Notes under the pieces: generated by a model
Seen by the model: the letters and a program-made list of their open reading frames with translations, nothing else
Databases searched by the model: none
What the model was told of the DNA's origin: nothing
Source: Verrucomicrobiota bacterium
GTDB lineage: Bacteria > Verrucomicrobiota > Verrucomicrobiia > Methylacidiphilales > JBCCWR01
Direction: 5' to 3'
Length of the DNA stretch: 64,000 bases
Assembly: GCA_039192515.1 (NCBI GenBank)
Contig: JBCCXA010000009.1
Coordinates: 925 to 64,924 of the forward strand
Shown here: positions 2,719 through 33,775 of the stretch, one piece after another
How positions within the stretch are numbered: position 1 is the stretch's first letter
Layout of the letters: each line of letters opens with the position of its first letter
Position numbers and translations under genes: made by a program

Positions 2719-2745
2719 AAGCCATTGTCGGAATTTCTATGTCCC

Positions 2746-5919: not shown

Positions 5920-5934
5920 GATTATAAAGACTTG

Positions 5935-6642: not shown

Positions 6643-6660
6643 TAATTTTAAATTGCTTAT

Positions 6661-17300: not shown

Positions 17301-17740
17301 AGAATTTCTTGAACTGGTTCACCTTTAATTGAAATAAAACGGGTTCGTAGTATTTCATGTCGTTCTATGAGTGTGTTTAGACTCTCTTCTAGAATTTCTA
17401 GATCTAAAGTACCTTGCAGCTCTAGAGCAAAGGGGACATTATAGGTCCAGGATTCAGGTTGCATTTCTTGCAGAAACCAGAGTCTTTGCTGCGAAAATGA
17501 GAGTGGAATTTTCTGTGGGCGAGGGTCACAACGCTCAATTTGAGCTGTTTTCGGCGTGTCTCTGGGAGCCGATAAAAAGGAAATAATTTCGGCTTTTTGC
17601 TGAGAAATTTGCTCTTTAAACTCATTAATAATCTTGGCAGAACCGCTGATTTTCAATTTGCCTTTAACGACCTGTAGGTTAATACCCCGATTTTGTAAGT
17701 CTGCTAAAAATGAAGTAATATTGGAGCTTTTAGCTTTCAA
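14327..17740 (-). CDS. NRPS, N-terminal docking domain-C(LCL)-A-PCP, substrate unclear
   Basis: LSFSQQRLWFL, HHIITDGWS, YTSGSVGKPKG, YGPTE, GGHSL. Code read as DGPTLGAVNK. The N-terminus ITSFLADLQNRGINLQVVKGKLKISG resembles a beta-hairpin (TubC-N type) docking domain. TTG start. Confidence 0.92.
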   Translation of the reverse strand: MKAKSSNITSFLADLQNRGINLQVVKGKLKISGSAKIINEFKEQISQQKAEIISFLSAPRDTPKTAQIERCDPRPQKIPLSFSQQRLWFLQEMQPESWTYNVPFALELQGTLDLEILEESLNTLIERHEILRTRFISIKGEPVQEILSRAIIDFIFDDHRDQPSPESHIKEEIEIMATTPFSLDQAPLFRASAYQIKDEKFVILFCFHHIITDGWSFEVLIKELVQAYRSHLLGTKPEFTPLPIQYADFAIWQHKSLDDAGLKNQLDYWKKQLSGELPTLDLPTDYPRQRMQTSNGDMVHFNIPDKITQQLREIGQHQSASLFMVLLTAYKLLLNRYTGQNDLLVGCPIANRHRYEVQSLIGFFVNSIVIRTQISPTASFIDTLKQVRSTTLSAYENQDLPFEKLVEAIQPERDMSRSPIFEVKFQLERASTSELQLPGLSLKPLAQEQISAKHDLGLDLYETDEGLVGGFEYNSDLFKRETVDRMSNHFLGLLKSIIQNSTSPISGLSIFTKTEEQAYLQSWNSHDKPFKDSLCYHQLFEAQVERTPEAIALVFDNGSSTELNYRKLNERANQLAHFLIEKGIKPESVVGIAVERSFEMVISLLAVLKAGAAYLPLDRTYPEERLRFLLSDSGSSALITTGDFTIEDSVEKTLTRINLDTISLSSYSSKNPKTNVQPDNLAYLIYTSGSVGKPKGTLIQHRGLVNLTEDKIRVCEITSDDCILQFFSFSFDGSVPEFVMTLAAGAKLLLAPAENLLPGPSLRDLINKHQVSHITITPSALNALPAHKYPSLKMVLVGGEAPPQELIEHWSQGRKFINAYGPTETSVNASMVTCGNGAPLTPTVTPSANKQLYVLNDSLEICPPGVVGELHIGGIGLARGYHHRPSLTAERFIPNPFPPVKGRNYNIPLLYKSGDLASYLSDGRIKILGRTDHQTKIRGYRIELQEIETVLETHPDIKVGLVRVKTSDKGNKRLVAYAIPHKKQHESDEEIKLYLSQKMPKFMIPSAFIWLDELPLTPNGKLDEKALPEPNDNRVTVRTPPQTLTEIKLADIFTATLEIDEIGVEENFFELGGHSLLVTQLIAKVVETFGVELTVIDLFDAPTVSTLSKRIDRKQQIASLTPADQENNHEGREQFTF

Positions 17741-17859
17741 TGGTGTAGAAGGTTGGGGTTGACTGGTGGTTTTTAGGCGAGTATTTTTAGGGTATCAGCC
17801 TTGTCAATTGCAAGGCTTTGAGTAGTTGATTTAAATTCTCTCTTTGCGTCTATTTATTC

Positions 17860-19890: not shown

Positions 19891-19892
19891 TC

Positions 19893-22800
19893 ATGAATAA
19901 ACCACAGGAGGTATCTACCCAATATAAAGAACGCTTAGAGCGTGCGATGACACTTATTGAACGACTCAAAGGAAAGCTATCACAACAGAACCAGAGCTCT
20001 GCATCCACTGAGCCAATTGCCATTGTAAGTATGGCATGTCGGTTTCCTGGCAGTGTAGCAGATCCTGAGGGGCTGTGGGAATTGTTAGAAAATGGACGTG
20101 ATGCTATTACGCAAGTGCCTTCGGATCGGTGGGATGCTGAGGAACTATATGATGGAGCTCCGGCTGTTCCGGGAAAAGTCATTAACAAGCAAGGTGGCTT
20201 CATTGATAAAGTAAAGGAATTTGATCCCCTATTCTTTGGAATATCGCCCAAAGAGGCACATACTATGGATCCTCAACAGCGGATATTAATGGAGGTTTCT
20301 TATGAGGCACTTGTCCGCTTAGGTATGAATCCCAAACAAGCTTCAAGTATTGAGGCTGGAGTTTTTGTTGGAGTGAGTGGCACGGACTATGCCAGACATT
20401 TATCTCAGCTTTCAGGAGAGCAAATAGATCCTTATTTAGCTACAGGAAATTCTGCAAGTGTGTTAGCGGGACGCCTTTCTTACGTGCTTAGAATGACGGG
20501 TCCAAGTCTTAGTATAGATACCTCGTGCTCGTCTTCTTTGGTAGCTGTTCATTTGGCTTGCCAGAGTCTTCAGAATCAGGAATGCGAACTTGCTTTAGCC
20601 GGCGGTGTGAATTGCATTCTGACGCCGGAAGTAAGTATCGCCTTTTCTCAGGCTCGGATGCTTTCGCCGAGAGGGCGTTGTCATACCTTTTCAAGTAAGG
20701 CAGATGGTTTTGTGCGAGCAGAAGGTTGTGGGATGGTTGCTCTCAAAAAGCTATCTAAAGCACGAGTTGATGGAGATCAGGTTCTTGGGATTATTCGCGG
20801 TTCGGCTATCAACCAAGACGGAGGGAGTGGGGGTCTTACAGTTCCCAATGGGCACTCCCAACAAAAGCTTATTCAATCTGCTTTAAAGACATCAGGAGCA
20901 TCACCAGAAGATCTTTACTATCTAGAAGCTCATGGCACTGGAACCGAGTTGGGAGACCCCGTCGAGCTGAATGCGTTGAGTGAAGTCTTTAAAGAGAGCC
21001 ATTCTCCAGAACGTCCACTTTTGATTGGGTCAATAAAAACTAATCTTGGGCATATGGAAGCTGCAGCAGGCATAGGGGGGTTGATGAAAGTAGTTCTTTC
21101 TATGCAGCATGGAATGTTACCTAAGCATCTCCATTTTTCGGAACCGACTCCTCATGTAAAATGGGATAAGATTCCAATCAAAGTGACTGACCAAAAAGTG
21201 GAATGGCCTAGAGGGTCTTCTTCTCTAGCGGGAGTGAGTTCTTTCGGTTTTAGTGGCACCAATGCTCATGTTATTTTAGAACGATCAGAGGGCTCTCTAA
21301 AAAATTTAGAGCCAGTTCCTTCTACTTCAAATCATAAAAGAAGGTATTGGGTAGATATACCTAAAAACAAGAAAAGACGCCCATTACTTTCTCATCCCTG
21401 GCTGCAAGAAATGCTTTCTGTGGCACGCATTAACTCGAAGCATCTTGTTGTTTCTCAAAGTCTCTTTCGTGATGATGTTCTGAAACAACACCAAGTTCTT
21501 GGACAAGCTGTTTTTCCAGGGGTTGGTTTTCTCGAATTGCTATCCGCTGCATTCAAACATGTTTATGGATCTAAGAATATTTCCTTAAAGGATGTGAGCT
21601 TTGCTCGGGTACTATCATTGGATTCTGAGATGCCAGTTCAAATTGTTCTCAAGCAAGATACCGCGGAAGTTCTGCAACAAACTGAAACAGGTGAATGGCA
21701 AACATTGTGTGTTACGATGCTAGATCAAAGCTATCAAAAGGTTCACAATTTATCCATAAGTGATTTTCCTAGGTATGAGCTTTCTGAGGTGGCGCCAAGC
21801 CATGTTTATGAGCGGCTAGCAAGCCAAGGGGTTTCTTATGGGGAAGCATGGAAATTAATTGAATCTCTCCAAACAAAAGATGGCTATATTCGGGCTCATA
21901 TTAAGGCTCCTCAAGAGTCAGGAGGCTTTCATTATCACCCGTTTCTATTAGATGCTATTCTACAGACAATGGCTGCTGGCTTCTTGGAGAAGGAAGATGA
22001 TAAATATACCTATATTCCAGAGGGCGTAGGCCAAGTTATCTTTCATGTCGAAAAACTCTGTGGTGAGGTATTTACCGTGTTAGGAAAGATGAAATCTGGA
22101 GAGGGTTGGGTTAGTGCAGATTTTCTTTTGCAAGACGAAGAGGGAGCCGACTTAGTAACTTTCAAAGATATTCGTTTGCGTCCTCTCACTAAAAACTGGA
22201 TTACCAGAGTCAATCGGGCTTCGGTTAAGGATTGGTTTTATTCAGTGGACTGGAAGCTCGATAATATTCCCTCTAGGGAAAAAGGACACACTCCAGAACA
22301 ATTAGCTCGTCAGCTTATGGATGATGCAAAAGAGGCTCTCGAGGTTGAAGAAATCAAACGGTACCGAGAGGGATTACCTAACTTAGAGCGAGCTGCGGCT
22401 CAGCTGGCAGGAATTATTTTATCTAAGGTAGACTCGGAAAAAGTTATTCCGGAACAAAAAGTGCTGTGGAGGCATTTGCATAATAGAGCCCAAACAGAAA
22501 TTTTAGAAACCTCAACGTTTACCGACGAATTGCAGGCTGTCTTCCCGCAGGAAATCAAGCTGATCCAACGTTGCGCAAGTGAAGCTGTTGCCGTGGTGGA
22601 AGGAGACCAGGATCCTATGGAAGTTCTTTTTCCTAAAGGTGATAGCTCCGAATTAACCTGGCTCTACCAAAAATCAGACGCAGCACAACTGCTCAACAAA
22701 CAAATGTGTCTGAGCTTTGCTCAAATACGAAAGGGTCTAGGGCGTCCTCTTAAAATTCTGGAAGTTGGTGGGGGAACCGGCGGAACTACTGCGTTACTTA

Positions 22801-25800
22801 TCGAACTCTTGGGTAAGGATGATGAGTATGTTTTCACGGATGTTTCACCCTTTTTAGTAGACGAAGCCAAACAAAAATTTGGTCATTCAGAACAAATGCT
22901 TTTCAAAACACTCGACCTAAGTCAAAGCCTATTAGAGCAAGGATTTGATAGAAATACGTACGATTTGGTCATCGCGGCGAATGTCTTGCATGCAACTCCT
23001 GACATAGATAGCTCTGTTCGCAAGATTGGAGAACTTCTTTTGACTAACGGATATTTGCTTTTATTAGAGGGAGTTAAACCACTCCTTTGGCTAGATCTTA
23101 TATTCGGTTTGACCAAAGGCTGGTGGTCTTTTAACGACGAGTGGAGAGTCGATTATCCTCTTTTGTCCAGCACTACATGGCATAAGCTCTTTAATAGCAT
23201 GGGTTGGGAATCATCAACGATTACAGTTGGCGATTTGCCTCAAGCCGTCATGGTTGCTCAAAAAAGGGCGGAAAAAAATGAGAAGCTAGTCATATGGGCT
23301 GAGCATCGTCAAGGAGCTGGAACATTTGCCGAGCAAATACAAGCCGGAGTTCGGAACCTGTTGTCGCAGGTTAAAGCATGTCTAAGTGGGAAGCCACCCT
23401 GGCCGCAACTTGTGCTAGTGACTCAGGGTGCCACTGATTTACACGCTTTTCACCCTGAGCAAGCAACTCTATGGGGATTATCAAGAACCATTGAACTGGA
23501 ATTTCCTGGACTACAATGCCTGCGCATCGATCTCGACCCCACGAAAACGCTTGCTGAACAGAGAGATTTAGTCAATCAAGAACTAGAAAACTTGAGTCGA
23601 GGCTCGGTTCGGTTCCGAGATGGAAAACGATATGTAGCAAGGTTGCAACACGCAGAAAAAATAGAGTCTCTAAAAATTCCAGAAACGGATGCTTACGAAC
23701 TGAAATTGGAGAATACGCCAACTCGTTCATTGACCCTTGCTGAAGTTGAGCGAGAAAAACCAATATGTGGTGATATCGAAATTCGTGTGCAGGCCGCTGG
23801 GATCAATTTTATCGATGGGTTAGATATTGCAGGTATGCTTCCTTTCGAAAGAGGTTGGTTGGGAGTTGAATGCGCGGGCGAAGTGGTGTCAGTTGGTGAT
23901 AGTGTCACTGATTTTAAGATAGGTGATAAAGTTATGGCATTGGCTCCACGGGCATTTCGCACTTATGTCAATGTACCATCTGTTCTAGTAGCAAAGTGGC
24001 CAAATAATATTAAGACCGCACAGGCTGCCGCTACATTGCCGGTTAATTTCCTGACAGCCCAGCGCGCTCTTTGCGATATAGCACATTTGAAAAAAGGAGA
24101 GTCTGTTCTTATTCATTCGGGTGCGGGAGGTACAGGGATGGCAGCCATTCAAGTCGCACAACATCTGGGAGCTACGGTTTATGCCACATCGAGCCGTGCT
24201 AAGTGGCCAGTTCTGAAGCGATTAGGCGTTAAGAATATTTTTGATAGCCGCAGTTTAGGCTTTGCTGTGGAAGTAATCAAAGCCACGCAGGGGCAAGGGG
24301 TTCAGGTTGTTCTTAACTCATTAACAGGTGACTATATTGAAAAAGGTCTTTCTATTTTAGCCAAGGATGGACGGTTTATTGAATTAGGAAAGCGAGGCAT
24401 TTGGACCAAGGAACAAATCGGTGAATTTCGATCCGATATTCAGTATCACATTGTGGATTTATTTTCTGAAAGTGAACAACGCATCAAGCTTTGGCGATCT
24501 GAGGGTAAAGGGGATTCTATTTTCAAGGGTTTGCTTCCAGTTCAGGCATTACCAGAAACTTCATTTCCTATTCAAGAGGCTCCTCGAGCTGTAAAGTTTT
24601 TCCAGCGTTCCCGCCATGTGGGAAAGGTAGTGCTAGATTTTGATCGGACCCAAAGTCCGGTTCGTCAAGATGCTTCTTATGTGATTACTGGAGGAGCTGG
24701 AGGGCTGGGGCTTGAAACAGCTCGTTGGTTGGTGGAGCAAGGCGCCAGGCACGTTTTGTTACTAGGCCGAAATATTCCAAAGTCGGATGATCCTAGATTA
24801 CTCATCATAAAAGAAGCCATTGAGAAGAATTGGGTGTGGTTTGAGAGTGCAGATGTTTCTGAGCGTGCTGCAGTTGAGGGAGTCTTGAAGCATGCTCAAG
24901 AACGTGCACCATTGCGCGGTATTTTTCATAGTGCGGGTGTCTTGTCTAATGCCACGATTCAGGAGTTATCTTGGGATGAGGTGAATTATGTTTTTGGTCC
25001 CAAGGTTTGGGGAGGTTGGCATTTGCATGAATTGACAGCTCATCTGGAGCTTGATTTATTTGTTTTGTATTCATCTGCAGCTTCTTTGCTCGGTTCTCCA
25101 GGCCAGGGAAATCATGTCGCAGCAAATGCTTTCCTGGATGCACTGGCGCATCATCGAAGATCACTCGGTTTACCTGCCCAAAGTTTCAATTGGGGAGCTT
25201 GGTCTCAGGTTGGATCGGCAGCCTCTCAGTCAACCCAAATGGAATTGGCAAAACGAGGGATTTCTATGATAGATCCTCAAAGTGGAATTAAATGCCTATC
25301 ACTTGCCCTCCAAAGGCCAGATTGTTGCCAGTTAGGGTTGGTTCGGGTTGACTGGAAAACTTTATTAAAAGCAGGTTTGTCTCTTGATCCATTTTTTGAA
25401 TATTTTGCTCGGTCCATATCAAAAGAAAGGCATGAAAATAAAGCATTAAAAACCGGGAAGGAAGGAGAATGGATTAAAGAATTAAAGAATCTTCCCAGAG
25501 GGCAATGGAGTCATTACCTAAACAAGAAAATTCGAGAAGAATTGGCTCAAGTCATCGGATTACAGGCTGGGGACTTGCCACCGGCTGACGCAGGATTTTT
25601 CGATCTTGGGGTGGATTCATTGATGAGTGTCGATTTAAAAAATCGGTTAGCGTTGTATCTGGCCACTGATATTTCTCCTACGCTTATCTTTCAGCATCCA
25701 ACCATCAGCGCTCTCGCACAAAAACTTACTGAGTTGTTAGAGAATCAAATGAATGTCTTAGGAAAAAACAAAATTCAAAGCAAACAATCGATTGATGTCT

Positions 25801-25916
25801 CTACTCTAAAACTAGATGACGATTCGGAGACAAAACTTTTAGTGTCCGAAGTTTCTGGCAAGGACATTGCCTCTGAGCTCTTAGCTCTTGAAGAGTTATT
25901 AGAGGAGTCCTCATAA
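19893..25916 (+). CDS. Type I PKS module KS-DH-cMT-ER-KR-ACP lacking an AT domain
   Basis: KS: DTSCSSS, HGTGT, KTNLGH. DH: HQVLGQAVFP and LLDAILQ. MT: LEVGGGTGG and ANVLHAT. ER: LIHSGAGGTG. KR: TGGAGGLG. ACP: FDLGVDSL. Only about 40 aa separate the KS end from the DH start, with no GHSxG. Confidence 0.9.
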   Translation: MNKPQEVSTQYKERLERAMTLIERLKGKLSQQNQSSASTEPIAIVSMACRFPGSVADPEGLWELLENGRDAITQVPSDRWDAEELYDGAPAVPGKVINKQGGFIDKVKEFDPLFFGISPKEAHTMDPQQRILMEVSYEALVRLGMNPKQASSIEAGVFVGVSGTDYARHLSQLSGEQIDPYLATGNSASVLAGRLSYVLRMTGPSLSIDTSCSSSLVAVHLACQSLQNQECELALAGGVNCILTPEVSIAFSQARMLSPRGRCHTFSSKADGFVRAEGCGMVALKKLSKARVDGDQVLGIIRGSAINQDGGSGGLTVPNGHSQQKLIQSALKTSGASPEDLYYLEAHGTGTELGDPVELNALSEVFKESHSPERPLLIGSIKTNLGHMEAAAGIGGLMKVVLSMQHGMLPKHLHFSEPTPHVKWDKIPIKVTDQKVEWPRGSSSLAGVSSFGFSGTNAHVILERSEGSLKNLEPVPSTSNHKRRYWVDIPKNKKRRPLLSHPWLQEMLSVARINSKHLVVSQSLFRDDVLKQHQVLGQAVFPGVGFLELLSAAFKHVYGSKNISLKDVSFARVLSLDSEMPVQIVLKQDTAEVLQQTETGEWQTLCVTMLDQSYQKVHNLSISDFPRYELSEVAPSHVYERLASQGVSYGEAWKLIESLQTKDGYIRAHIKAPQESGGFHYHPFLLDAILQTMAAGFLEKEDDKYTYIPEGVGQVIFHVEKLCGEVFTVLGKMKSGEGWVSADFLLQDEEGADLVTFKDIRLRPLTKNWITRVNRASVKDWFYSVDWKLDNIPSREKGHTPEQLARQLMDDAKEALEVEEIKRYREGLPNLERAAAQLAGIILSKVDSEKVIPEQKVLWRHLHNRAQTEILETSTFTDELQAVFPQEIKLIQRCASEAVAVVEGDQDPMEVLFPKGDSSELTWLYQKSDAAQLLNKQMCLSFAQIRKGLGRPLKILEVGGGTGGTTALLIELLGKDDEYVFTDVSPFLVDEAKQKFGHSEQMLFKTLDLSQSLLEQGFDRNTYDLVIAANVLHATPDIDSSVRKIGELLLTNGYLLLLEGVKPLLWLDLIFGLTKGWWSFNDEWRVDYPLLSSTTWHKLFNSMGWESSTITVGDLPQAVMVAQKRAEKNEKLVIWAEHRQGAGTFAEQIQAGVRNLLSQVKACLSGKPPWPQLVLVTQGATDLHAFHPEQATLWGLSRTIELEFPGLQCLRIDLDPTKTLAEQRDLVNQELENLSRGSVRFRDGKRYVARLQHAEKIESLKIPETDAYELKLENTPTRSLTLAEVEREKPICGDIEIRVQAAGINFIDGLDIAGMLPFERGWLGVECAGEVVSVGDSVTDFKIGDKVMALAPRAFRTYVNVPSVLVAKWPNNIKTAQAAATLPVNFLTAQRALCDIAHLKKGESVLIHSGAGGTGMAAIQVAQHLGATVYATSSRAKWPVLKRLGVKNIFDSRSLGFAVEVIKATQGQGVQVVLNSLTGDYIEKGLSILAKDGRFIELGKRGIWTKEQIGEFRSDIQYHIVDLFSESEQRIKLWRSEGKGDSIFKGLLPVQALPETSFPIQEAPRAVKFFQRSRHVGKVVLDFDRTQSPVRQDASYVITGGAGGLGLETARWLVEQGARHVLLLGRNIPKSDDPRLLIIKEAIEKNWVWFESADVSERAAVEGVLKHAQERAPLRGIFHSAGVLSNATIQELSWDEVNYVFGPKVWGGWHLHELTAHLELDLFVLYSSAASLLGSPGQGNHVAANAFLDALAHHRRSLGLPAQSFNWGAWSQVGSAASQSTQMELAKRGISMIDPQSGIKCLSLALQRPDCCQLGLVRVDWKTLLKAGLSLDPFFEYFARSISKERHENKALKTGKEGEWIKELKNLPRGQWSHYLNKKIREELAQVIGLQAGDLPPADAGFFDLGVDSLMSVDLKNRLALYLATDISPTLIFQHPTISALAQKLTELLENQMNVLGKNKIQSKQSIDVSTLKLDDDSETKLLVSEVSGKDIASELLALEELLEESS

Positions 25917-26006: not shown

Positions 26007-26693
26007 TCATTTCCTAGCGCTACGACGAAGAAGCGCTAGGGCAGCTGCGCCTACAGCAAGCAGAGCATATGTAGAAGGTTCTGGAACCACTTCAATGCTG
26101 GCTGTACCATCAGCATCCCATTGATGACGAACAAAAACGAAAGCGCCTACTTGATCATCGACATCTAAATCGAAGGAACTTTCTGTTAGTATAAGGCCAC
26201 TAGTTTCGCTAAATACACCTGGACCAAAACCACTTTGAAATGTGAATGAAACATCTGCATCTAGGCTTAAGCTAGTCAGTAACCCATCAGTGAAAGACGC
26301 CGATCCTGAATTAATGGCAAGAGTCGTCGTATAATTGGTATCGTTAAGGACTGAGAATGTCCCGCTAATATATTGTGCAAAATCAAAAGTAGCATCAGTG
26401 ATATTGAAACTTTCAGATCCAGAACCAATGAGATCACCGTCTAGGCTTAAGCTTCCCACACTATTCCAGTTTCCTTCGCTAGGAAAAACGTCGAGGTCTC
26501 CCCCTAGTTGATTATTAGTATCAATGTCATACATGCCATCTGGTTCCAGGTCTACCTGAGCATATCCGTTAGAGAAATAGTCATAGACACGACTGCTCCC
26601 ATTAGCCGTCAGATCAACATTTAATACAGTTACTGCTTGAGCACTAACAGACATAACACTGATCATACACGTTAGTAATAATGATTTTTTCAT
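26007..26693 (-). CDS. PEP-CTERM surface protein
   Basis: Signal peptide. C-terminal VVPEPSTYALLAVGAAALALLRRSARK. Confidence 0.9.
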   Translation of the reverse strand: MKKSLLLTCMISVMSVSAQAVTVLNVDLTANGSSRVYDYFSNGYAQVDLEPDGMYDIDTNNQLGGDLDVFPSEGNWNSVGSLSLDGDLIGSGSESFNITDATFDFAQYISGTFSVLNDTNYTTTLAINSGSASFTDGLLTSLSLDADVSFTFQSGFGPGVFSETSGLILTESSFDLDVDDQVGAFVFVRHQWDADGTASIEVVPEPSTYALLAVGAAALALLRRSARK

Positions 26694-26706
26694 CTTTCTT
26701 CTCCTA

Positions 26707-27576
26707 TTATTTATTAAAATTTGATGTACGAGTTACATCTATCTTTTTCTTGATTGAAATTAGTAATGTTGCCAGGCCAATGACGAGCATGGCCCATGTC
26801 GAAGGTTCCGGAATAACATAATTACCCTGTGCATCAAATACCAAGTGTGTGTTCTCTAAAGGCCCCAAGGCAGTTGTGTTATCTTGTATAACATCAACAT
26901 CAAATGCAAAGGAGTTTCCAGAAAAGGTGAGTAAACCATCGTATGAGCTGCCAAAGGGCAGAGATCCTAGCAACTGAGGGGTGATGGCAATGTCAGCGAC
27001 GAAATCGATGCTCGTTAATTCACCATTTACAAAAGTTAGACCAGCACCTGTCAAATCTCCGATACTGGCAGCATAGTCCCAGGCGAATTCGTTGTTGATA
27101 TTTCTGGGACTAAACAAAGGCGAAAAATCGGCTAGGTCTAAAGAGAGTGTAAAGTCTGATAACCCTAATACTTCTGTCCCGCTGCCTGTAAGTAAAGTGT
27201 CATCGTAGCTGATATCACCCACATCAAATATGCCAAAGTCACTATCCGTAATCGTCTTTTGTAAGACATTGAAATTGGCTTCCTCAAAGCTATAAGTAGT
27301 AGAAGCCGACAATTGTTCAGATACAATCATAACCCATACCCCTGCTCCGCCGTTCTTACTTGGATCCCAATAGTAAGGATATTCGAAGGGTTTTGAACCG
27401 GGTAAACCAGAGTTTGGTTCAACTAACTCTGATTGGATATTTGTAATATACAAAGAGCCTGTTCCATTATTTGTGCTGAGATCAACAAATTGAGTCGTGG
27501 AATGCGCTGCTGTGTTCAAAAGTAATACCGTGCTTGTTAAATAAAGTAAGTTTTTAAGCAGACCTTTTTTAATCAT
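26707..27576 (-). CDS. PEP-CTERM surface protein
   Basis: Signal peptide. C-terminal VIPEPSTWAMLVIGLATLLISIKKK. Confidence 0.88.
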   Translation of the reverse strand: MIKKGLLKNLLYLTSTVLLLNTAAHSTTQFVDLSTNNGTGSLYITNIQSELVEPNSGLPGSKPFEYPYYWDPSKNGGAGVWVMIVSEQLSASTTYSFEEANFNVLQKTITDSDFGIFDVGDISYDDTLLTGSGTEVLGLSDFTLSLDLADFSPLFSPRNINNEFAWDYAASIGDLTGAGLTFVNGELTSIDFVADIAITPQLLGSLPFGSSYDGLLTFSGNSFAFDVDVIQDNTTALGPLENTHLVFDAQGNYVIPEPSTWAMLVIGLATLLISIKKKIDVTRTSNFNK

Positions 27577-27593
27577 GCCGAGAAAATACTTAA

Positions 27594-27612
27594 ACTGAGA
27601 CTCATGTGCAAT
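27594..27612. promoter_or_regulatory. Fur-like 19-bp operator
   Basis: ACTGAGACTCATGTGCAAT, 18 bp upstream of the 27576 start. 16/19 identical to the box at 32137. Confidence 0.55.
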
Positions 27613-27718
27613 AAGAAATTTAATTAATTAATGAAATACTTATTTAAACCACTGGATAGGACGTCTCGAGCTCGATAGACACCTGTAATGAAAAAGTCTA
27701 AGCTTATACTGAAAAGAT

Positions 27719-28498
27719 TTAGAGATTTAATGAGAATGCAATGGGGACAACTAGAGGCATCTCAACCGGAAAATCGTTGATTGTTCCAGGGTAAAACTTC
27801 CATCGGAGTGCAGTCTGATAAGCCTTTTGATCTAGGACTTCATGACCGGAACCCTCGATAATATCAATGTCTAAAACCGATCCTTCACTTGAAATCATTA
27901 ATTTAAGAAGTACGCGACCTTCATATTTATTTCTCCTAGCAAGGACAGGGTAGCTAGGAGCTGGGCAATCCTTATAAGTAGGTCGCTTGCGAACTTTAAT
28001 CGCTTTTTGGCCGTGACTATTCAGAGGCCGAGAATAAGTAATCATGGATCTACTGCTATTAGAATTCGCCGCGCCTTGATTGGCTGGGGAAGCCATGACC
28101 TCAAATAACTCAGAACTAACAGTGGGTCCGTCATAGGAAACGATTACATCCAGCATATGACTCTCCAAAGCATCATCATTCAGGTTTTCAAAGGCCTTCT
28201 CAGTCAATATCTCTTCCATCTCTCTCTCAAATTCTAGGTCTTCACGATTATCTAAAACCAGAGCATTTGTTTCTTCTACTTGTATTTGAGGCGAACTCAG
28301 TTCCTCTTCAGGTATTTCCTGTGGTTCATCTACGATCAGAGGCTCAACCTGAATGGCCTGGAATTGCAGTCTTGGTTGGAAATGAAGGCCCTGGGTTCTA
28401 AATAAGATGATCCCACCGACAGCAGCAAAGAGAACAGAGTGAAATGCAATGGAAAGTAGCAGGCCCAATACTCCGGATGATCTTAGGGTTAACTTCAT
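27719..28498 (-). CDS. tonB: Energy transducer TonB
   Basis: N-terminal TM with SIAFH, acidic/Pro linker, and a C-terminal TonB domain PSYPVLARRNKYEGRVLLKLMISSEG...SGHEVLDQKA...WKFYPG. Confidence 0.88.
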   Translation of the reverse strand: MKLTLRSSGVLGLLLSIAFHSVLFAAVGGIILFRTQGLHFQPRLQFQAIQVEPLIVDEPQEIPEEELSSPQIQVEETNALVLDNREDLEFEREMEEILTEKAFENLNDDALESHMLDVIVSYDGPTVSSELFEVMASPANQGAANSNSSRSMITYSRPLNSHGQKAIKVRKRPTYKDCPAPSYPVLARRNKYEGRVLLKLMISSEGSVLDIDIIEGSGHEVLDQKAYQTALRWKFYPGTINDFPVEMPLVVPIAFSLNL

Positions 28499-28533
28499 GA
28501 GTAGGATTTATGTATCGATCGGAATGTAAAGTT

Positions 28534-28552
28534 ATTGAGATTGATTTTCAAG
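28534..28552. promoter_or_regulatory. Fur-like 19-bp operator between divergent tonB and receptor
   Basis: ATTGAGATTGATTTTCAAG, an imperfect 9-1-9 palindrome. Confidence 0.5.
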
Positions 28553-28579
28553 TATTAAGGCCTTAATAATCCTTTCTTC

Positions 28580-30991
28580 ATGATGCGACTTCTTAAGCTT
28601 AACTGCGTAATAAGTCTATTTATTTCCACTGTTTTTTGCCAATCTGAGGAAAGCGCTAACTTGTATACTGATCCCAACACAGGTGAGAAAATTTTTGTAT
28701 TAAAGGAAATTCTTGTGCAAGCAGATGCAATTATTGCTGTAGAGGATACAAAATTCCGAGCCAAGAAGAATACTTCAGGAATAGGTCTTGAGGTAGATCG
28801 CATGAATTCGCCAGTTACTGTTAACACCTTAACCTCAGAACTTCTTGAAACGCAGCAAACGGTGGATATTCGGGAAGCTTTTGATAATATTGCTGGGGTC
28901 ACTCAGTCAGGGAGTGGTAGTAAGGAGTTACCTATTATTCGAGGGTTTGATGCGAGGCGTTCTATTTTTAAAAATAACTCACGCGTAGGTGGTGCAGCGC
29001 CTCTTGGAGAGCTATTAGCTCCCACGACGGAGGTTAGTAATATCGAAAGAGTTGAAGTTCTAAAAGGTCCTTCAGCTATTCTATATGGTAACATGGAACC
29101 TGGTGGAATTATTAACTATATAACGGAATCCCCGGAGCAGTTTTTTGGTGCTGAGGCCAAGGCATTTTACGGATCAGAAGATTTTCTCAAAGGCTTGCTG
29201 GACATTACTGGCCCAATTGGAGAAAGTGATTTCTCTTACCGGGTTAATGCCTCTTGGACAGAACAAGATACCTATCGAGGATCTCTTAGAGATCAGGATA
29301 GGCTTTTCCTAGCTCCTGCTTTAAGCTGGCAGCCCTCAGAGGACACCCTTATGCTTTTTAGAGGTGAATTTACTCAAGATAATGTTCCTACGGATGCGGG
29401 TTTATTCTATGACCGTGGCAATGCAGTGCCCAATACAAATCAATCAACGGTTTATGGGGTGCCTAACATCAATATAGAGGAGACCGAGATCGTAAGAGGT
29501 GATCTTGACTTTGAACACCGTTTCTCGGATTTTTTTAAAATTGACTATCACGGTAGCTTTAATCAGATGAGAAAAAGAATTAATCAATCAGCATTAGTTC
29601 CTATCCAAGAGGTTTTAGATTCTGCAGCAATTCTTGCTACATTATTTGGTGGCACACCGAGAGTCTCAAACTTCGATTCCAGTGCTATGCTCATTGATGA
29701 TACTGTTATACAAGAGGGCAACTATACAGGCTTCACTGTCTTCGCAGTGGCTGAATTACTTGAGTTAGGATTCCTAGGAGATCCTCCACTTACCTATGGC
29801 ACGGCCCAAGAAGGTAGTGTTCTAGTGCTTCATCAGAATAACAAAGTTTATACAAATGAATATGGGGCTCAGGCTAATCATATCTTTGAGTTTGAAACGG
29901 GTGAAGCTTTTGATCAGGCAATATCCCACCAAATGTTAGTCCGTTTCGATATGGAGTTTTTACCTTACGAGTTCTACTCTAGCGACTCTGGGTTAATATT
30001 CGGTCTTCAGGATGCAATCGATCCTGTTTATCCTGAGACTCTTGATTTTCTACCACTTCAGCTTACCACAGATGAGGAGACTTTTTCTTATGGTATCTCT
30101 GCTCAACATTTGATTTCTTTTGGTGAATATTTACATATTTTATTAGGTGGGCGTTTTAGTCATTTTGATCGAGATTATAAGGATCAAGATATTATCTTAG
30201 AAAATGGTGATGTAGACACTGGTCTTGGGTTTACAGACACATCAGATTCCATTGACCCACGCTTCGGTGTGGTGTTGAGGCCTATCGAGGAAATGTCTGT
30301 CTATGGTGCTTTTTCAACTGCGTTTAATACAGAGAATAGAATAACTAGAGTTGGAGCACCTGTAAAACCTACCACTTCAGAGCAAATCGAGGTAGGAATG
30401 AAGTTCGATCTCCTAAAAAGTAGGCTAGGTATCGAGTTCTCATTATTCCAAGTGATCAAACAAGACTTAGTCGTTGTCGATCCCACGAATGATCGTTTTG
30501 CTGAGCCTGCCGAAAATTTTTATCTCAACATTGGGGAAGAAACAACCCGAGGCTTAGAATTAGAAATCACAGGAGAACTTTTTAGTGGCTTCGATCTTCA
30601 GCTCAGTTACGCCTATCTCGACGCAAGGCTTAGTAATGATGAAACGCGTGGCTATACAGGGAATCGCAAAAAAGGCGTCCCTTACCACAGTGGAAGTATT
30701 TCAGCCGTTTATGAGGTGCAGGAGGGTGCTTTGAAAGGGTTTGGTATGGGCACGAGCTGTTTTTTACGTGATACGGTGCAAAATGATGACGCCAATACCT
30801 TTACGCTATATGGCTGGGTGCGTAACGATGCATTGATCTACTACCGGCAAGAGCACTGGAAAGCCCAAATTAATTTTAAAAACATCTTTGATGTAGAATA
30901 CTTACTTCCCGCTGGAACGGAATCGACTCCTAATACCGTTTTTCCTGCTCCTCCTTTTACAATTATTGGCTCTTTAGGAGTTAATTTTTGA
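28580..30991 (+). CDS. TonB-dependent receptor (siderophore-receptor-like)
   Basis: Plug motifs IIRGF and NIERVEVLKGPSAILYGNMEPGGIINYIT. Barrel strands, NFKNIFDVEY, C-terminal Phe. Confidence 0.92.
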   Translation: MMRLLKLNCVISLFISTVFCQSEESANLYTDPNTGEKIFVLKEILVQADAIIAVEDTKFRAKKNTSGIGLEVDRMNSPVTVNTLTSELLETQQTVDIREAFDNIAGVTQSGSGSKELPIIRGFDARRSIFKNNSRVGGAAPLGELLAPTTEVSNIERVEVLKGPSAILYGNMEPGGIINYITESPEQFFGAEAKAFYGSEDFLKGLLDITGPIGESDFSYRVNASWTEQDTYRGSLRDQDRLFLAPALSWQPSEDTLMLFRGEFTQDNVPTDAGLFYDRGNAVPNTNQSTVYGVPNINIEETEIVRGDLDFEHRFSDFFKIDYHGSFNQMRKRINQSALVPIQEVLDSAAILATLFGGTPRVSNFDSSAMLIDDTVIQEGNYTGFTVFAVAELLELGFLGDPPLTYGTAQEGSVLVLHQNNKVYTNEYGAQANHIFEFETGEAFDQAISHQMLVRFDMEFLPYEFYSSDSGLIFGLQDAIDPVYPETLDFLPLQLTTDEETFSYGISAQHLISFGEYLHILLGGRFSHFDRDYKDQDIILENGDVDTGLGFTDTSDSIDPRFGVVLRPIEEMSVYGAFSTAFNTENRITRVGAPVKPTTSEQIEVGMKFDLLKSRLGIEFSLFQVIKQDLVVVDPTNDRFAEPAENFYLNIGEETTRGLELEITGELFSGFDLQLSYAYLDARLSNDETRGYTGNRKKGVPYHSGSISAVYEVQEGALKGFGMGTSCFLRDTVQNDDANTFTLYGWVRNDALIYYRQEHWKAQINFKNIFDVEYLLPAGTESTPNTVFPAPPFTIIGSLGVNF

Positions 30992-31055
30992 TTTTTTGAT
31001 CAAAAATTTGGACTGATTGCAGGAGGTTAGACGGCGATTGAGCAATTTTATTGCT

Positions 31056-31074
31056 ATTGAGACTTAATCTCTTT
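31056..31074. promoter_or_regulatory. Fur-like 19-bp operator
   Basis: ATTGAGACTTAATCTCTTT, 14 bp upstream of ATG 31089. Confidence 0.5.
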
Positions 31075-31088
31075 ATACACGTTAGCGC

Positions 31089-32069
31089 ATGAAGAAACCG
31101 AAGTTTAGACTCTCTTTAGTTTTAGCAACAATACTAGGAATAGCAACGCCATCCTATTCTGCGACTTTTGATCTAGATTTGACCGCAGATGGTGATAGCC
31201 GTTGGTTTGAATATTTTGCGGACGCCTTCGCTCAAATCGATCAAGGCTTCTTTAATGGTACGACAATACCCAATCCAGATCCAGTTCTTGATGGATTCTT
31301 CTTCATCAGTGAACTTCCCAATTTAGTTCCTATCCAGGGCGGGAGTACGGGGACAGGCGGTGCTGCTACTGGTGCAGATATTTTTCCTTTTGAGGAAAAT
31401 TTTTCGAACATTGGTTCTATTACCTATGATGATTCTGGTCTGACAAACATTGGCGTGGAGATTGCCCCAATCACGGGCATTATCATGGATTGGGTAACTT
31501 ATGTTTCGGATCTCGGTACTATCATCGAGAATGCCAACTCGCAAGATGATGGTGAAAACTCATATGAAACCTTTTTCTCTAATTTAGTTGGTGAGGTGAA
31601 GTTATTAGATGGTGCGGTAATAGACATTAGTCTGACAGCGGATATCACATTTACTTATGTCGACTTTAAAATAAGTCCTTCTGCACCTACAGAAGATATT
31701 GATTTCCAAGGTGTGTTTACCATAAGTGACGGTGAATTTGATCTCTTTGTTGATGAAACAGAAAACTACATACTTTTCTCTGATAACGTTCGAGTAGCCT
31801 GGGACGTTGAGGGTATTGTCAATAATTTGGCAACCCCTCGTATAGCTCCTGACATTGAATTTGTCTCTGCACCATCGCTTGGTGTAAGATTAAGTTGGCC
31901 TTCAGTGACAGGCTGCAGCTATCAAGTCAAAAGATCGACAACGGGAGTTGATGGTGCAGACTTCCAAGACTTTGGCAGTTCCATTGCTGGAGACGGCACG
32001 ACCAAGGAAATAACAGACAGCGCGTTAGGCGCAAATGCCTTTTACACCGTCGAGGTGTTTTTTCCATAA
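31089..32069 (+). CDS. Exported protein paralogous to the PEP-CTERM proteins but with a different C-terminal beta-domain
   Basis: Signal peptide. DLTADGDSRWFEYFADAFAQID aligns with DLTANGSSRVYDYFSNGYAQVD of 26007..26693. Ends LSWPSVTGCSYQVKRS...FYTVEV instead of PEP-CTERM. Confidence 0.85.
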   Translation: MKKPKFRLSLVLATILGIATPSYSATFDLDLTADGDSRWFEYFADAFAQIDQGFFNGTTIPNPDPVLDGFFFISELPNLVPIQGGSTGTGGAATGADIFPFEENFSNIGSITYDDSGLTNIGVEIAPITGIIMDWVTYVSDLGTIIENANSQDDGENSYETFFSNLVGEVKLLDGAVIDISLTADITFTYVDFKISPSAPTEDIDFQGVFTISDGEFDLFVDETENYILFSDNVRVAWDVEGIVNNLATPRIAPDIEFVSAPSLGVRLSWPSVTGCSYQVKRSTTGVDGADFQDFGSSIAGDGTTKEITDSALGANAFYTVEVFFP

Positions 32070-32136
32070 TCACTTCGTTTTAATTCTATTAAATGATGGA
32101 TACCACATTTAGCTTACAACCCAATAAATTTTTGTA

Positions 32137-32155
32137 AATGAGACTCATTTGCATT
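32137..32155. promoter_or_regulatory. Fur-like 19-bp operator
   Basis: AATGAGACTCATTTGCATT, 14/18 match to AATGATAAT-n-ATTATCATT. Directly abuts a TTGACT -35-like hexamer. Confidence 0.6.
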
Positions 32156-32227
32156 TGACTCCTCCACGAATTCTGTTATTTAAATGTCATAGTCTAGTTA
32201 GACATAACAACTAAAATAATAAAAAAT

Positions 32228-33154
32228 ATGAATAGATACCTAATAATTGCAATGGCCGCTATGGTCTCGTTGGCGACTGCGCCAAACACATCAAAAGCTG
32301 ATGAATTCTTGTTAACCTTCAACGCTACTCTTAATAGCTATTCTGGACCCGCAGGAGCTGATCCATTTAACCCCACAAGCCTATTAGGGTCGCAAATTGC
32401 TGCCAATCCGGATTTAGGGATTCTTGAGGGCCAATTTATTGTAAAAGACTTTGATGCCAACTTCACAGGCACAATTACGACTGCTACATCAGGTGCCGAG
32501 CTCTTTATTCATTCGCCTGTTCTTGAGCGTGTTGAGGCTTACACAACACGAGTAAGTAGTTCATCTCCTCTCGGAACACCAGTAAATACAAAGTATCTAC
32601 TACCAAGAACCGCAACAACTACCACCACTGATGAAAATGGCCTTACCTCAACAGGATTCTTCGGAACTGCAACAGCGACCTTTGTAAACGGTGAAGTTAC
32701 ATCATTTAGTTACAGCCAGGGTCCCGATACTTTAGCATCGTTTGACTTCCGCTTCGACCCCTTTAGTATCGAAGGTTTAGACATCACCACAGGTGATGAG
32801 ACTGGCTTTGAATTAGTTGGAACTTTTGATCTAGATACGCCTGGCGATGCTGATGCTGTGCCTTACGGTTTCTTCAACACTCTGACACCTGCACCAAGTA
32901 GCACCGTTTTGCAAACAACACGTGGTGATCTAGCAATTGAGTTGGCAGCTGGTGCAATATTAGATGGAAGAGAGAGCAGCGGAGGTCAGCCTCTTGATTT
33001 TGATCCATTAGATGGAACAGGCACACTTTACTATTACGACACGACATCACTTGACGCTAGTCTTGAAGTCGTTCCTGAGCCTAGCACCTATGCTTTACTA
33101 GGTTTTGGAGGTGCAGCTTTATTTGCTCTTAGGCGGTTTCGTCGTCGCAAGTAA
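32228..33154 (+). CDS. PEP-CTERM surface protein
   Basis: Signal peptide. C-terminal VVPEPSTYALLGFGGAALFALRRFRRRK. Confidence 0.9.
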   Translation: MNRYLIIAMAAMVSLATAPNTSKADEFLLTFNATLNSYSGPAGADPFNPTSLLGSQIAANPDLGILEGQFIVKDFDANFTGTITTATSGAELFIHSPVLERVEAYTTRVSSSSPLGTPVNTKYLLPRTATTTTTDENGLTSTGFFGTATATFVNGEVTSFSYSQGPDTLASFDFRFDPFSIEGLDITTGDETGFELVGTFDLDTPGDADAVPYGFFNTLTPAPSSTVLQTTRGDLAIELAAGAILDGRESSGGQPLDFDPLDGTGTLYYYDTTSLDASLEVVPEPSTYALLGFGGAALFALRRFRRRK

Positions 33155-33185
33155 AATATTTAACCATTAACTTTATCTAAGTTTT

Positions 33186-33218
33186 GAAAGAGCCCTTAGT
33201 TACTACGAGGGCTTTTTC
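33186..33218 (+). terminator. Intrinsic terminator
   Basis: gaaagAGCCCT-tagttactacg-AGGGCTttttc, downstream of the 33154 stop. Confidence 0.7.
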
Positions 33219-33405
33219 AATGTATCGCGACTTACCGAGATTTGATTACGGCCTAGCAGGAAGCAGGCTTATGCGTGATATCAAAATAGGATTTTCCTGA
33301 AACCTTTCGTTGATAAAACTTTTAAAGAGAGAAGAGAATTTGGAGAGGTTCTGAAGAGTTAACCATTAAGTGAGTTAGAGGCGTTAAGGAATCAAAAGAA
33401 AGCTT

Positions 33406-33684: not shown

Positions 33685-33775
33685 TTATAAATAATCAGAT
33701 AGTTGCCATGACTTAAAACCCTCAAGTTATTATAAATTTTGTGGCGATAAGGTTTCCCAATAAAAGGAGATTTGC

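What the first reader, a model, noticed from the sequence alone, without database searches (positions are those of the whole stretch)
26007..33154. Putative iron-regulated module: TonB and receptor surrounded by a paralogous family of unknown surface proteins
Seen: three exported acidic proteins share a core (DLTAxGxSR..YF....AQxD; D.FP.E.N...GS..YDD..LT..G.E; FDLxVD; WD..G), and a fourth has weaker similarity. They flank tonB and the receptor, and each transcription unit has a related 19-bp box. Established: surface helpers such as hemophores and Sus-like lipoproteins feed TonB receptors. Inference: an undescribed PEP-CTERM-anchored metal or ligand capture family.
Basis: partly seen in the sequence, partly recalled or inferred. 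Interest (0 to 1): 0.62.

Follow-up and report, generated by a model that had tools for sequence, protein, structure and literature searches.

The report
Surface helper proteins of siderophore receptors
Around an iron-type outer-membrane receptor, this bacterium encodes four very acidic exported proteins from three unnamed families that sit beside metal-uptake genes in four phyla, and one of their domains is built into the outer loop of some receptors, so they are most likely undescribed cell-surface helpers of siderophore or iron uptake.

Summary
The region encodes a dedicated TonB, a siderophore-class TonB-dependent receptor and four exported proteins of pI about 4.

- A and C share a full "A-type" domain.
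- B shares only its C-terminal ~150 residues with them.
- D is a separate family; it resembles the others only in the PEP-CTERM tail.
- C has no PEP-CTERM tail; it carries an extra C-terminal domain instead.
- None of the cores matches a Pfam or NCBIfam model, and A-type and D-type match no solved structure.

A palindromic Fur-like box (AATGAGACTCATT) lies upstream of B-A and of D. Weaker versions lie in the tonB/receptor promoter region and upstream of C. Its best matches elsewhere in the genome lie upstream of a flavodoxin gene and of a PEP-CTERM cluster between ChaN and ferritin genes.

A-, B- and D-type genes recur together in 16 loci from Verrucomicrobiota, Planctomycetota, Pseudomonadota and Bdellovibrionota. 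Their neighbours are TonB-dependent receptors, PepSY_TM, AraC, MatE, FNR-like reductase and NRPS/PKS genes. In about ten Pseudomonadota receptors with a FyuA-like fold, the A-type domain is inserted in extracellular loop 5.

Best reading: exosortase-sorted or receptor-embedded ligand-capture partners of siderophore uptake, functionally like ZepA, XusB, HmuY or SusD. Binding and the iron response are untested.

The parts
26007..26693 (-). Protein A: A-type domain with a PEP-CTERM tail (228 aa, pI 4.05)
   Evidence: PF07589 27.8 bits, TIGR02595 25.7 bits. 44% identical to P0008, which lies directly upstream of a receptor gene. Profile search found 424 representatives.
26707..27576 (-). Protein B: B-type protein with a PEP-CTERM tail, first gene of the B-A pair (13 bp gap to A)
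   Evidence: E 1e-28 to P0010, which precedes the A-type gene in L012. B-type vs A-type hhalign 99.2% over the C-terminal ~150 aa.
27594..27610 (.). Fur-like palindromic box upstream of B-A (ACTGAGACTCATGTGCA)
   Evidence: 2 mismatches to the 17-mer. Related boxes lie upstream of B-type genes in L012, L014, L043 and L044.
27719..28498 (-). Dedicated TonB
   Evidence: PF03544 TonB_C 70 bits; TIGR01352 59.6 bits.
28531..28549 (.). Weaker Fur-like box between the divergent tonB and receptor genes (GTTATTGAGATTGATTTTC)
   Evidence: 13/19 to the E. coli Fur consensus. About 5% of random 150-bp windows of this genome reach 13 or more. It overlaps promoter-like hexamers on both strands.
28580..30991 (+). 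TonB-dependent siderophore-class receptor (803 aa)
   Evidence: Plug and barrel domains. TIGR01783 236.4 bits against a cut-off of 223.5. One of only 3 Plug-domain genes in the genome.
31053..31071 (.). Weak related box upstream of C (GCTATTGAGACTTAATCTC)
   Evidence: 12/19 to the Fur consensus and shares the TGAGACT core. Not above background on its own.
31089..32069 (+). Protein C: A-type domain plus a ~70-aa C-terminal domain, no PEP-CTERM tail
   Evidence: No PEP-CTERM hit. Full-length match to the C-like protein next to the receptor in L048, E 1e-24. The same type lies adjacent to the receptor in L042 and L049.
32134..32153 (.). Best Fur-like box, upstream of D (GTAAATGAGACTCATTTGCA)
   Evidence: Exact 17-mer, palindromic, matches on both strands. 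13/19 to the Fur consensus.
32228..33154 (+). Protein D: D-type protein with a PEP-CTERM tail; a separate family
   Evidence: 47% identical over its full length to a Planctomycetaceae protein in the same module. E 2e-12 to the protein upstream of a fused receptor in L030. Similar to A/B only in the tail.
1948..25916 (.). Neighbouring FAAL-PKS-NRPS-TE assembly line, possible source of the cognate ligand (link inferred)
   Evidence: Domain content. Similar NRPS/PKS genes lie next to the module in planctomycete loci L010 and L019.

Best explanation
This is an uptake module for a siderophore-type ligand, probably repressed by a Fur-family regulator. It comprises a siderophore-class TonB-dependent receptor, its own TonB, and four exported acidic beta-rich proteins from three co-travelling unnamed families: A-type (A and C), B-type (B) and D-type (D).

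Proposed mechanism:
- After Sec export, A, B and D are processed by the genome's exosortase through their PEP-CTERM tails and end up at the cell surface.
- C lacks the tail. Its extra C-terminal domain probably keeps it on or near the receptor.
- At the outer mouth of the receptor, the A-type domain, helped by B and D, captures the ligand and hands it to the receptor. The ligand is most likely a ferric siderophore, possibly the lipopeptide made by the adjacent NRPS-PKS genes. TonB then energises import.

Shown here: gene content, homology, conserved neighbourhoods, and insertion of the domain into a receptor. Inferred from a high-confidence model: the insert lies in an extracellular loop. Inferred only: surface location after exosortase processing, ligand identity, binding and hand-over, and iron regulation.
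For: 1. Receptor fusion. About ten Pseudomonadota receptors of 909-957 aa carry the A-type domain as an insert. P0057 residues 1-371 and 612-935 align with residues 1-370 and 380-677 of the free-standing receptor that lies next to A-type protein P0008, at 40% and 38% identity. The insert, residues 395-579, matches P0008 at 35% identity, E 5e-18.
2. Location of the insert. The AlphaFold model of P0057 has pLDDT 86.3 and pTM 0.79. Its strand string gives 22 barrel strands with 2-7-residue periplasmic turns. By strand parity the insert lies between strands 9 and 10, which is extracellular loop 5, on a two-stranded stalk.
3. Receptor class. The best structural match of the model is the yersiniabactin receptor FyuA (target TM-score 0.87), followed by Fiu, PiuA, FoxA and FhuA.
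4. Conserved neighbourhoods in 16 loci from four phyla.
   - The B-then-A gene pair is followed by a receptor gene directly in L012 and L014, and after one further family gene in L042 and L048.
   - A C-like protein lies next to the receptor in L042, L048 and L049.
   - B- or D-type genes lie upstream of fused receptors.
   - Neighbours include AraC, MatE, FNR-like reductase, PepSY_TM, Fur and NRPS/PKS genes.
5. Chance adjacency is unlikely. This genome has 3 Plug-domain genes; two other Verrucomicrobiota genomes that carry the module have 15 and 17.
6. Regulation. The box is Fur-like. At 2 mismatches or fewer it occurs at four loci genome-wide, all upstream of genes: D, B, a flavodoxin gene, and a PEP-CTERM cluster between ChaN and ferritin genes. 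Related boxes lie upstream of B-type genes in other genomes, one of them 15/19 to the E. coli Fur box.
7. The genome has two exosortases and four Fur-family genes.
8. Precedent. ZepA is a PEP-CTERM exoprotein that mediates zinc uptake and is often encoded near TonB-dependent transporters (PMC10957091).
Against: - No binding, localisation or expression data exist.
- The fold of the A-type domain has no significant match in the PDB (best E 0.02, TM-score about 0.3, from a model with pLDDT 70), so no binding site can be named.
- The window's own receptor is only distantly related to the receptor subfamily that is fused or adjacent elsewhere (24% identity).
- In three Planctomycetota genomes the module exists with no TonB-dependent receptor at all. 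The families therefore do not strictly depend on a receptor.
- Two Verrucomicrobiota loci (L043, L044) have no receptor gene within 10 kb.
- The adjacent NRPS-PKS genes show no siderophore hallmark: no hydroxylase, monooxygenase or cyclisation domain was seen.
- Two of the four boxes are no better than background.
- With four Fur-family paralogs in the genome, the metal that is sensed is not proven.
Confidence: 0.6

Rival explanations
1. Protein metallophores. The acidic A-, B- and D-type proteins bind the metal cation themselves (Fe3+ or another hard cation such as Ca2+ or a lanthanide) through Asp, Glu and Tyr side chains, and deliver it to the receptor. This would parallel what ZepA is proposed to do for zinc, with no small-molecule siderophore involved.
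For: - The proteins are extremely acidic and have almost no His or Cys, with conserved Asp, Glu and aromatic positions.
- ZepA is a precedent.
- Five of the 16 loci have an NRPS/PKS cluster in the neighbourhood examined (window, L010/L046 and L019); the other loci show none there.
- The module persists in Planctomycetota that lack receptors.
Against: - The partner receptors have a siderophore-receptor fold, with FyuA the best match, and the window receptor passes TIGR01783.
- MatE exporters, AraC regulators, FNR-like reductases and PepSY_TM proteins are typical of siderophore systems.
- The proteins do not match the ZepA model NF040463.
Confidence: 0.2
2. Iron-regulated matrix or adhesion proteins. 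They are exosortase-sorted structural proteins of the cell envelope or exopolysaccharide layer. Under iron starvation they might attach cells to iron-bearing particles or retain an amphiphilic siderophore near the cell, without touching the receptor.
For: - PEP-CTERM proteins are classically linked to exopolysaccharide and floc formation. There are weak sub-threshold similarities to the floc protein PepA and to NF038129.
- Some relatives carry dockerin or Calx-beta domains.
- Some loci have no receptor gene.
Against: - The domain is inserted into a receptor loop in about ten proteins.
- C-like genes overlap or abut receptor genes.
- The neighbourhood is uptake genes, not polysaccharide-synthesis genes.
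Confidence: 0.12
3. Receptor shield. The proteins cover the exposed loops of the receptor to block phages or bacteriocins that use siderophore receptors as entry points.
For: Siderophore receptors are common phage and colicin targets; complexes of FhuA with phage T5 pb5 and with the exclusion lipoprotein Llp appear among the structural matches. The inserted domain sits on top of the barrel.
Against: - The module is conserved in receptor-free Planctomycetota together with PepSY_TM and NRPS/PKS genes.
- The core motifs are conserved across phyla, which is not what is expected of surfaces in an arms race.
Confidence: 0.04

Closest known systems
ZepA (All3515) of Anabaena sp. PCC 7120, NCBIfam NF040463 (PMC10957091)
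   Same: [quoted passage not shown] It is controlled by a Fur-family regulator, is often encoded near TonB-dependent transporters and other PEP-CTERM proteins, also occurs in the PVC group, and mediates uptake of a metal.
   Different: No sequence match to NF040463. ZepA uses histidines for zinc, whereas these proteins have 0-1 His. The context here is iron and siderophore genes, not zinc genes. Here three families travel together, and one of them occurs as a receptor-loop insert.
Surface lipoprotein partners of TonB-dependent receptors: SusD (with SusC), XusB (with XusA, enterobactin), HmuY (with HmuR, haem), TbpB (with TbpA), BtuG/BtuH (with BtuB)
   Same: Each is encoded next to its receptor, is displayed on the outer face, and captures the ligand for hand-over (this comparison rests on my own knowledge of those systems).
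   Different: Those proteins are lipid-anchored; these have an exosortase tail or no anchor. No sequence or fold similarity was found. None of those partners is known to me as a domain inserted in a receptor loop.
Secreted hemophores (HasA with HasR)
   Same: A protein that captures the ligand outside the cell for a specific receptor. Protein C, which has no anchor, could act this way.
   Different: No homology. HasA is secreted by a type I system. The ligand here is probably not haem, because the genome's haem cluster is elsewhere, on contig C44.
NF038129-family PEP-CTERM proteins and the floc protein PepA (NF033554)
   Same: Weak similarity over the C-terminal half plus the tail: A residues 110-224 against model positions 76-192 of NF038129, with 31 of 82 family members hitting that model.
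   Different: All scores lie far below the cut-offs (30 against 65 bits; 24 against 80 bits). The N-terminal A-type motif is absent from those families.

Membership tests
PEP-CTERM / exosortase substrates | C-terminal PEP motif, hydrophobic stretch and basic end, matching PF07589 / TIGR02595 | tested here: met
   A, B and D score above both cut-offs. C does not: it has SAPS at the aligned position and continues into a further domain.
PEP-CTERM / exosortase substrates | Exosortase (EpsH family) encoded in the same genome | tested here: met
   PF09721 matches above cut-off on contigs C34 and C16.
PEP-CTERM / exosortase substrates | Cleavage by the exosortase and delivery to the cell surface | not testable with these tools
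   Needs proteomics or cell fractionation.
ZepA / all3515 family (NF040463) | Match to the family model | tested here: not met
   No hit at E <= 0.1 for A, B, C or D.
ZepA / all3515 family (NF040463) | Histidine-based zinc site | tested here: not met
   0-1 His in the mature part of each protein.
TonB-dependent siderophore receptor (TIGR01783) | Plug and 22-strand barrel domains, with a score above the subfamily cut-off | tested here: met
   PF07715 62 bits, PF00593 146 bits, TIGR01783 236.4 against 223.5 bits.
TonB | C-terminal TonB domain behind an N-terminal membrane anchor | tested here: met
   PF03544 70 bits at residues 179-257. The hydrophobic N-terminus is visible in the sequence.
Fur regulon (iron) | Fur-box-like palindrome in the promoters, and the same box at classic iron-starvation genes | tested here: inconclusive
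   The boxes upstream of D and B, and the same box upstream of a flavodoxin gene and of the cluster between ChaN and ferritin genes, fit this. Identity to the E. coli consensus is only 12-13 of 19, two boxes are at background level, and there are four Fur paralogs.
Fur regulon (iron) | Derepression under iron limitation | not testable with these tools
SusD, HmuY, HasA and TbpB-type receptor partners | Sequence or fold membership in one of these families | tested here: not met
   No Pfam or NCBIfam hit. No PDB sequence hit for the A-type or D-type profiles. No significant Foldseek hit for the model of A.
NF038129 / PepA PEP-CTERM families | Score above the curated cut-off | tested here: not met
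   30 against 65 bits and 24.3 against 80 bits. No member among the 82 scanned reaches a named core family.

The most novel reading that the evidence does not exclude
A-, B- and D-type proteins form an undescribed, horizontally mobile extracellular capture complex for siderophore-type ligands that does not depend on one kind of outer-membrane gate. It can be exosortase-sorted next to a TonB-dependent receptor (Verrucomicrobiota), built into extracellular loop 5 of the receptor (Pseudomonadota), or paired with DUF1559-type pseudopilins and a PepSY_TM reductase-like protein in Planctomycetota whose genomes have no TonB-dependent receptor. The last arrangement would point to a route for metallophore import across the outer membrane that does not use a receptor.
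Probability: 0.25. Interest if true: 0.8.

Novelty: new variant of a known kind. Interest (0 to 1): 0.66.

Why it matters
Surface partners of TonB-dependent receptors are well studied as lipoproteins in Bacteroidota and Neisseria. In PVC-group and many environmental bacteria they are almost unknown, and ZepA (2024) is the only tested PEP-CTERM example that I found.

This work defines three unnamed families; the A/B-type profile alone finds about 420 clusters at 50% identity. They are genetically tied to siderophore-type uptake. A natural fusion places one domain on the outer face of a FyuA-like receptor, which gives a direct handle for biochemistry and structural work.

The module also occurs in Planctomycetota without any such receptor, next to DUF1559 pseudopilins. 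DUF1559 is a very large family of unknown function, and this offers a testable lead on how those bacteria take up metallophores. Iron acquisition by marine Verrucomicrobiota and Planctomycetota matters for ocean iron cycling.

Tried and rejected
- Fold of the A-type domain. The model of A from 11 sequences reached only pLDDT 70. Foldseek against the PDB gave no significant match; the best hits were PsbO-like barrels at E 0.02 and TM-score about 0.3. I do not assign a fold.
- Profile searches of the PDB by sequence for A-type and D-type found nothing.
- D as a distant paralog of A/B: rejected. hhalign aligns only the last strand and the tail.
- A Fur-like box for the NRPS-PKS genes. A TGAGATTGAGTCT match at 17907 lies inside the FAAL coding sequence, so I treat it as chance.
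- The promoter and terminator scan of the region was no better than shuffled sequence.
- The search for related loci with the full 11-sequence alignment failed for lack of a conserved stretch. It worked with A-type sequences only.
- Literature searches found no paper that describes these families or loop-inserted domains in TonB-dependent transporters.
- Whether the neighbouring NRPS-PKS product is a siderophore stays open. No chelating-group enzymes were seen.


Full report
**What is in the window**

The region 26007-33154 holds six genes in two divergent groups.
- Minus strand: tonB (27719-28498), then B (26707-27576), then A (26007-26693, only 13 bp after B).
- Plus strand: a TonB-dependent receptor gene (28580-30991), then C (31089-32069), then D (32228-33154).

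The TonB assignment rests on the C-terminal TonB domain (PF03544, 70 bits). The receptor has Plug and barrel domains and passes the curated cut-off of the siderophore-receptor subfamily TIGR01783 (236.4 against 223.5 bits).

A, B, C and D all begin with hydrophobic signal-like N-termini. They are extremely acidic: core pI 4.05, 28-49 Asp+Glu against 2-9 Lys+Arg, and at most one His or Cys. A, B and D end in a PEP-CTERM sorting signal that scores above the cut-offs. C does not. The genome encodes two exosortases and four Fur-family proteins. Earlier agents of this scan judged the genome to be a probable Verrucomicrobiota member, and the closest module carrier that has a name is a Puniceicoccaceae MAG.

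**How the four proteins are related**

- A and C are full-length paralogs (26% identity, E 3e-16). I call their shared domain A-type. Its signature is LxLTADGxSRxxDYFSDAFAQID ... DGFF ... DxFPxEG ... YxT ... GxVxLxDGxVxxIxLxADIxFT ... FxLxVD ... RxAWDxxG.
- B matches A only over the C-terminal 160 residues (E 5e-10). A profile of ten B-type proteins matches the A-type profile with 99.2% probability, again only over the C-terminal ~150 residues. The other three motifs are shared by A, B and C.
- D matches A/B/C only in the last strand and the PEP-CTERM tail, both pairwise and profile against profile. D is a separate family.
- C replaces the tail with a ~70-residue domain that ends ...AFYTVEVFFP. 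This architecture is conserved in C-like proteins of other Verrucomicrobiota (E 1e-24 over the full length).

**The families are undescribed**

Pfam finds nothing in the cores. NCBIfam gives only sub-threshold hits that are driven largely by the tail. The best is NF038129 at 30 bits against a cut-off of 65, and the same holds for 82 relatives. Profile searches against PDB sequences with the A-type and D-type alignments find nothing.

A full HMMER search with an A/B-type profile found 424 cluster representatives at 50% identity, 134 of them below 1e-30. The family is therefore sizeable. It is also patchy: only 4 of 301 sampled genomes of the window's own phylum carry it.

Architectures vary around the A/B-type domain:
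- PEP-CTERM or VPLPA-type tails;
- dockerin plus PEP-CTERM;
- Calx-beta repeats;
- lipoprotein-like N-terminal extensions;
- no anchor at all.

**Regulatory boxes**

The 17-mer AATGAGACTCATTTGCA is a near-perfect palindrome and a variant of the Fur-box core AATGATAATCATT. It is exact upstream of D and has two mismatches upstream of B. In the window there are 3 matches at up to 3 mismatches against 0.37 expected.

Across the whole genome, matches with two mismatches or fewer occur at four loci, all just upstream of genes:
- D;
- B;
- a flavodoxin gene (PF00258);
- a row of three further PEP-CTERM genes lying between a ChaN haem-uptake gene (PF04187) and a ferritin gene (PF00210).

Flavodoxin is a classic iron-starvation gene, so iron is the most likely signal.

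The candidate boxes in the tonB/receptor promoter region and upstream of C share the TGAGAYT core, but they reach only 13 and 12 of 19 against the E. coli consensus. That is within or near the background of random 150-bp windows.

Related boxes lie upstream of B-type genes in other genomes: GGTAATGAGACTCAATCTT in L012, and CATCATGATAATCATGATA in L044, which is 15 of 19, a score reached by 4 of 2000 random windows.

**Conserved neighbourhoods**

I examined 16 independent loci.

Verrucomicrobiota-type loci:
- The recurrent order is an AraC gene, then divergently B, A, sometimes C, and a receptor gene, with a MatE exporter and an FNR-like reductase nearby (L012, L014, L042, L048).
- L049 has a PEP-CTERM gene, a C-like gene and a receptor gene, with the last two overlapping by 4 bp.
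- The protein upstream of P0008 is a clear B ortholog (E 1e-28).
- L043 and L044 have the B-A pair with a pilin-like gene, an AraC gene (L043) or a MatE gene (L044), and no receptor gene within 10 kb.

Planctomycetota loci (L010/L046, L019, L016, L047, L051):
- A-, B- and D-type genes sit among DUF1559 pseudopilin-like genes.
- A PepSY_TM gene is adjacent in four of the five (not seen in L051), and large NRPS/PKS genes lie next to L010/L046 and L019.
- Window protein D is 47% identical over its full length to a protein in one such locus. This suggests transfer between phyla.

Other phyla:
- A Pseudobacteriovorax locus has an A-type gene, a reductase-like gene and a MatE gene.

Adjacency to a receptor gene is unlikely by chance. 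The window's genome has only three Plug-domain genes, and two other Verrucomicrobiota genomes that carry the module have 15 and 17.

**The fusion**

Some Pseudomonadota MAGs encode receptors of 909-957 aa, about ten clusters in all.
- P0057 aligns with the free-standing receptor that follows P0008 in L012 over residues 1-371 (to 1-370, 40% identity) and 612-935 (to 380-677, 38% identity).
- The ~240 residues in between are an A-type domain: residues 395-579 match P0008 at 35% identity, E 5e-18.
- A model of P0057 built from 61 sequences is confident (pLDDT 86.3, pTM 0.79).
- Its secondary-structure string resolves into 22 barrel strands. The turns on one side are all 2-7 residues long, and the long loops all fall on the other side. 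Counting from strand 1, the insert lies between strands 9 and 10, which is extracellular loop 5, at the tip of a two-stranded extension.
- The barrel resembles the yersiniabactin receptor FyuA most closely (target TM-score 0.87), then Fiu, PiuA, FoxA and FhuA.
- The fused receptors are preceded by a B-type gene (L028) or a D-type gene (L030). In L030 a PepSY_TM gene follows the receptor.

A domain that is a separate, surface-sorted protein next to a receptor in one lineage, and part of the same receptor's outer loop in another, most likely works at the receptor's external face.

**Mechanism proposed**

Under iron limitation a Fur-type repressor releases the B-A, D and probably the tonB, receptor and C units. 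A, B and D are exported and processed by the exosortase. C stays unanchored, and its extra domain may dock it on the receptor.

The A-type domain, probably with B and D, captures a ferric siderophore at the cell surface and passes it to the receptor. TonB then energises import. The adjacent FAAL-PKS-NRPS-TE genes could make the ligand as an amphiphilic lipopeptide. Supporting this, a PKS with the same domain order (38% identity over 1626 residues) lies next to the module in a planctomycete. Against it, no chelating-group enzymes were seen, so the link is weak.

I put 0.6 on this reading. The main rival, at 0.2, is direct metal binding by the acidic proteins, as proposed for ZepA. Matrix or adhesion roles (0.12) and receptor shielding (0.04) fit the fusion and the neighbourhoods less well.

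**Comparison with known systems**

In function this resembles the surface partners SusD, XusB, HmuY, TbpB and BtuG, and above all ZepA, a PEP-CTERM exoprotein for zinc uptake that is often encoded near TonB-dependent transporters (PMC10957091). It is not a member of any of these families. There is no match to NF040463, no histidine site, no lipid anchor, and no fold or sequence similarity.

Other agents of this scan have noted different PEP-CTERM families next to B12, haem and zinc receptors, and a different unnamed family next to iron and haem receptors in Proteobacteria. I did not test those notes. They agree with the general theme and are not independent evidence.

**An unexpected point**

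The three Planctomycetota genomes that carry the module (3.4-6.8 Mb) have no Plug domain at all. There the families accompany DUF1559 pseudopilins, and in two of the three also a PepSY_TM protein. Either these MAGs are incomplete in a consistent way, or the capture proteins serve a different outer-membrane route.

**Verdict**

This is a new variant of a known kind, namely receptor-associated surface capture proteins. The genomic evidence, from fusion and conserved neighbourhoods, is unusually good, but there are no biochemical data.

Noticed in passing
own genome, contig C44:11828-19519 (outside the window): A haem-uptake cluster: HemS/ChuX, ABC transporter, TonB-ExbB-ExbD, and an 826-aa receptor. 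It also carries a PEP-CTERM protein (C44:13004-13819). Four bp after the receptor gene comes a 301-aa CBM96-like protein that ends ...KRFYTIRYD, the same kind of C-terminal domain as window protein C. Two of the genome's three receptors thus have exported partners of this style.
   Followed up: partly
own genome, contig C30:25149-29756: Three tandem PEP-CTERM genes sit behind two Fur-like boxes (C30:26269 and 26303), between a ChaN haem-uptake gene and a ferritin gene. A Fur-family gene lies at C30:19066-19422. The first of the three is a weak paralog of A (E 3.6e-5).
   Followed up: partly
L046, L047, L051 (Planctomycetota genomes G301-G303): No Plug-domain gene in any of the three genomes (3.4-6.8 Mb). 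The A/B/D module sits with DUF1559 (N_methyl + SBP_bac_10) pseudopilin-like genes, with PepSY_TM in two of the three, and in two of the three with a small ~155-aa protein carrying a weak CarboxypepD_reg-like match.
   Followed up: partly
window 32228-33154 vs L046:5987-6958: Protein D is 47% identical over its full length to a Planctomycetaceae protein. That is far closer than A-type protein C is to the A-type protein of the same locus (34%). It suggests recent transfer of at least this gene between phyla.
   Followed up: no
window 19887-25916 vs L019:10765-17349: The AT-less PKS (KS-DH-cMT-ER-KR-ACP) is 38% identical over 1626 residues, in the same domain order, to a PKS adjacent to the A-type and PepSY_TM genes in a Tara Oceans planctomycete contig. 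The biosynthetic genes and the capture genes may travel together.
   Followed up: partly
window 33155-34750: About 1.6 kb between D and the nitroreductase-family gene (34755-35471, minus strand) holds only short ORFs of 83-115 aa with no obvious gene.
   Followed up: no
window 700-1875: A DUF3500 protein (254 bits) lies at the far left end, beside the thioesterase of the NRPS cluster. Its function is unknown and its relation to the cluster was not examined.
   Followed up: no
P0092, P0096, P0126, P0130 (relatives): The A-type domain also occurs at the N-terminus of very large proteins (up to 3211 aa), with Calx-beta repeats, and at the C-terminus of lipoprotein-like proteins of 650-1340 aa. 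Their gene neighbourhoods were not examined.
   Followed up: no
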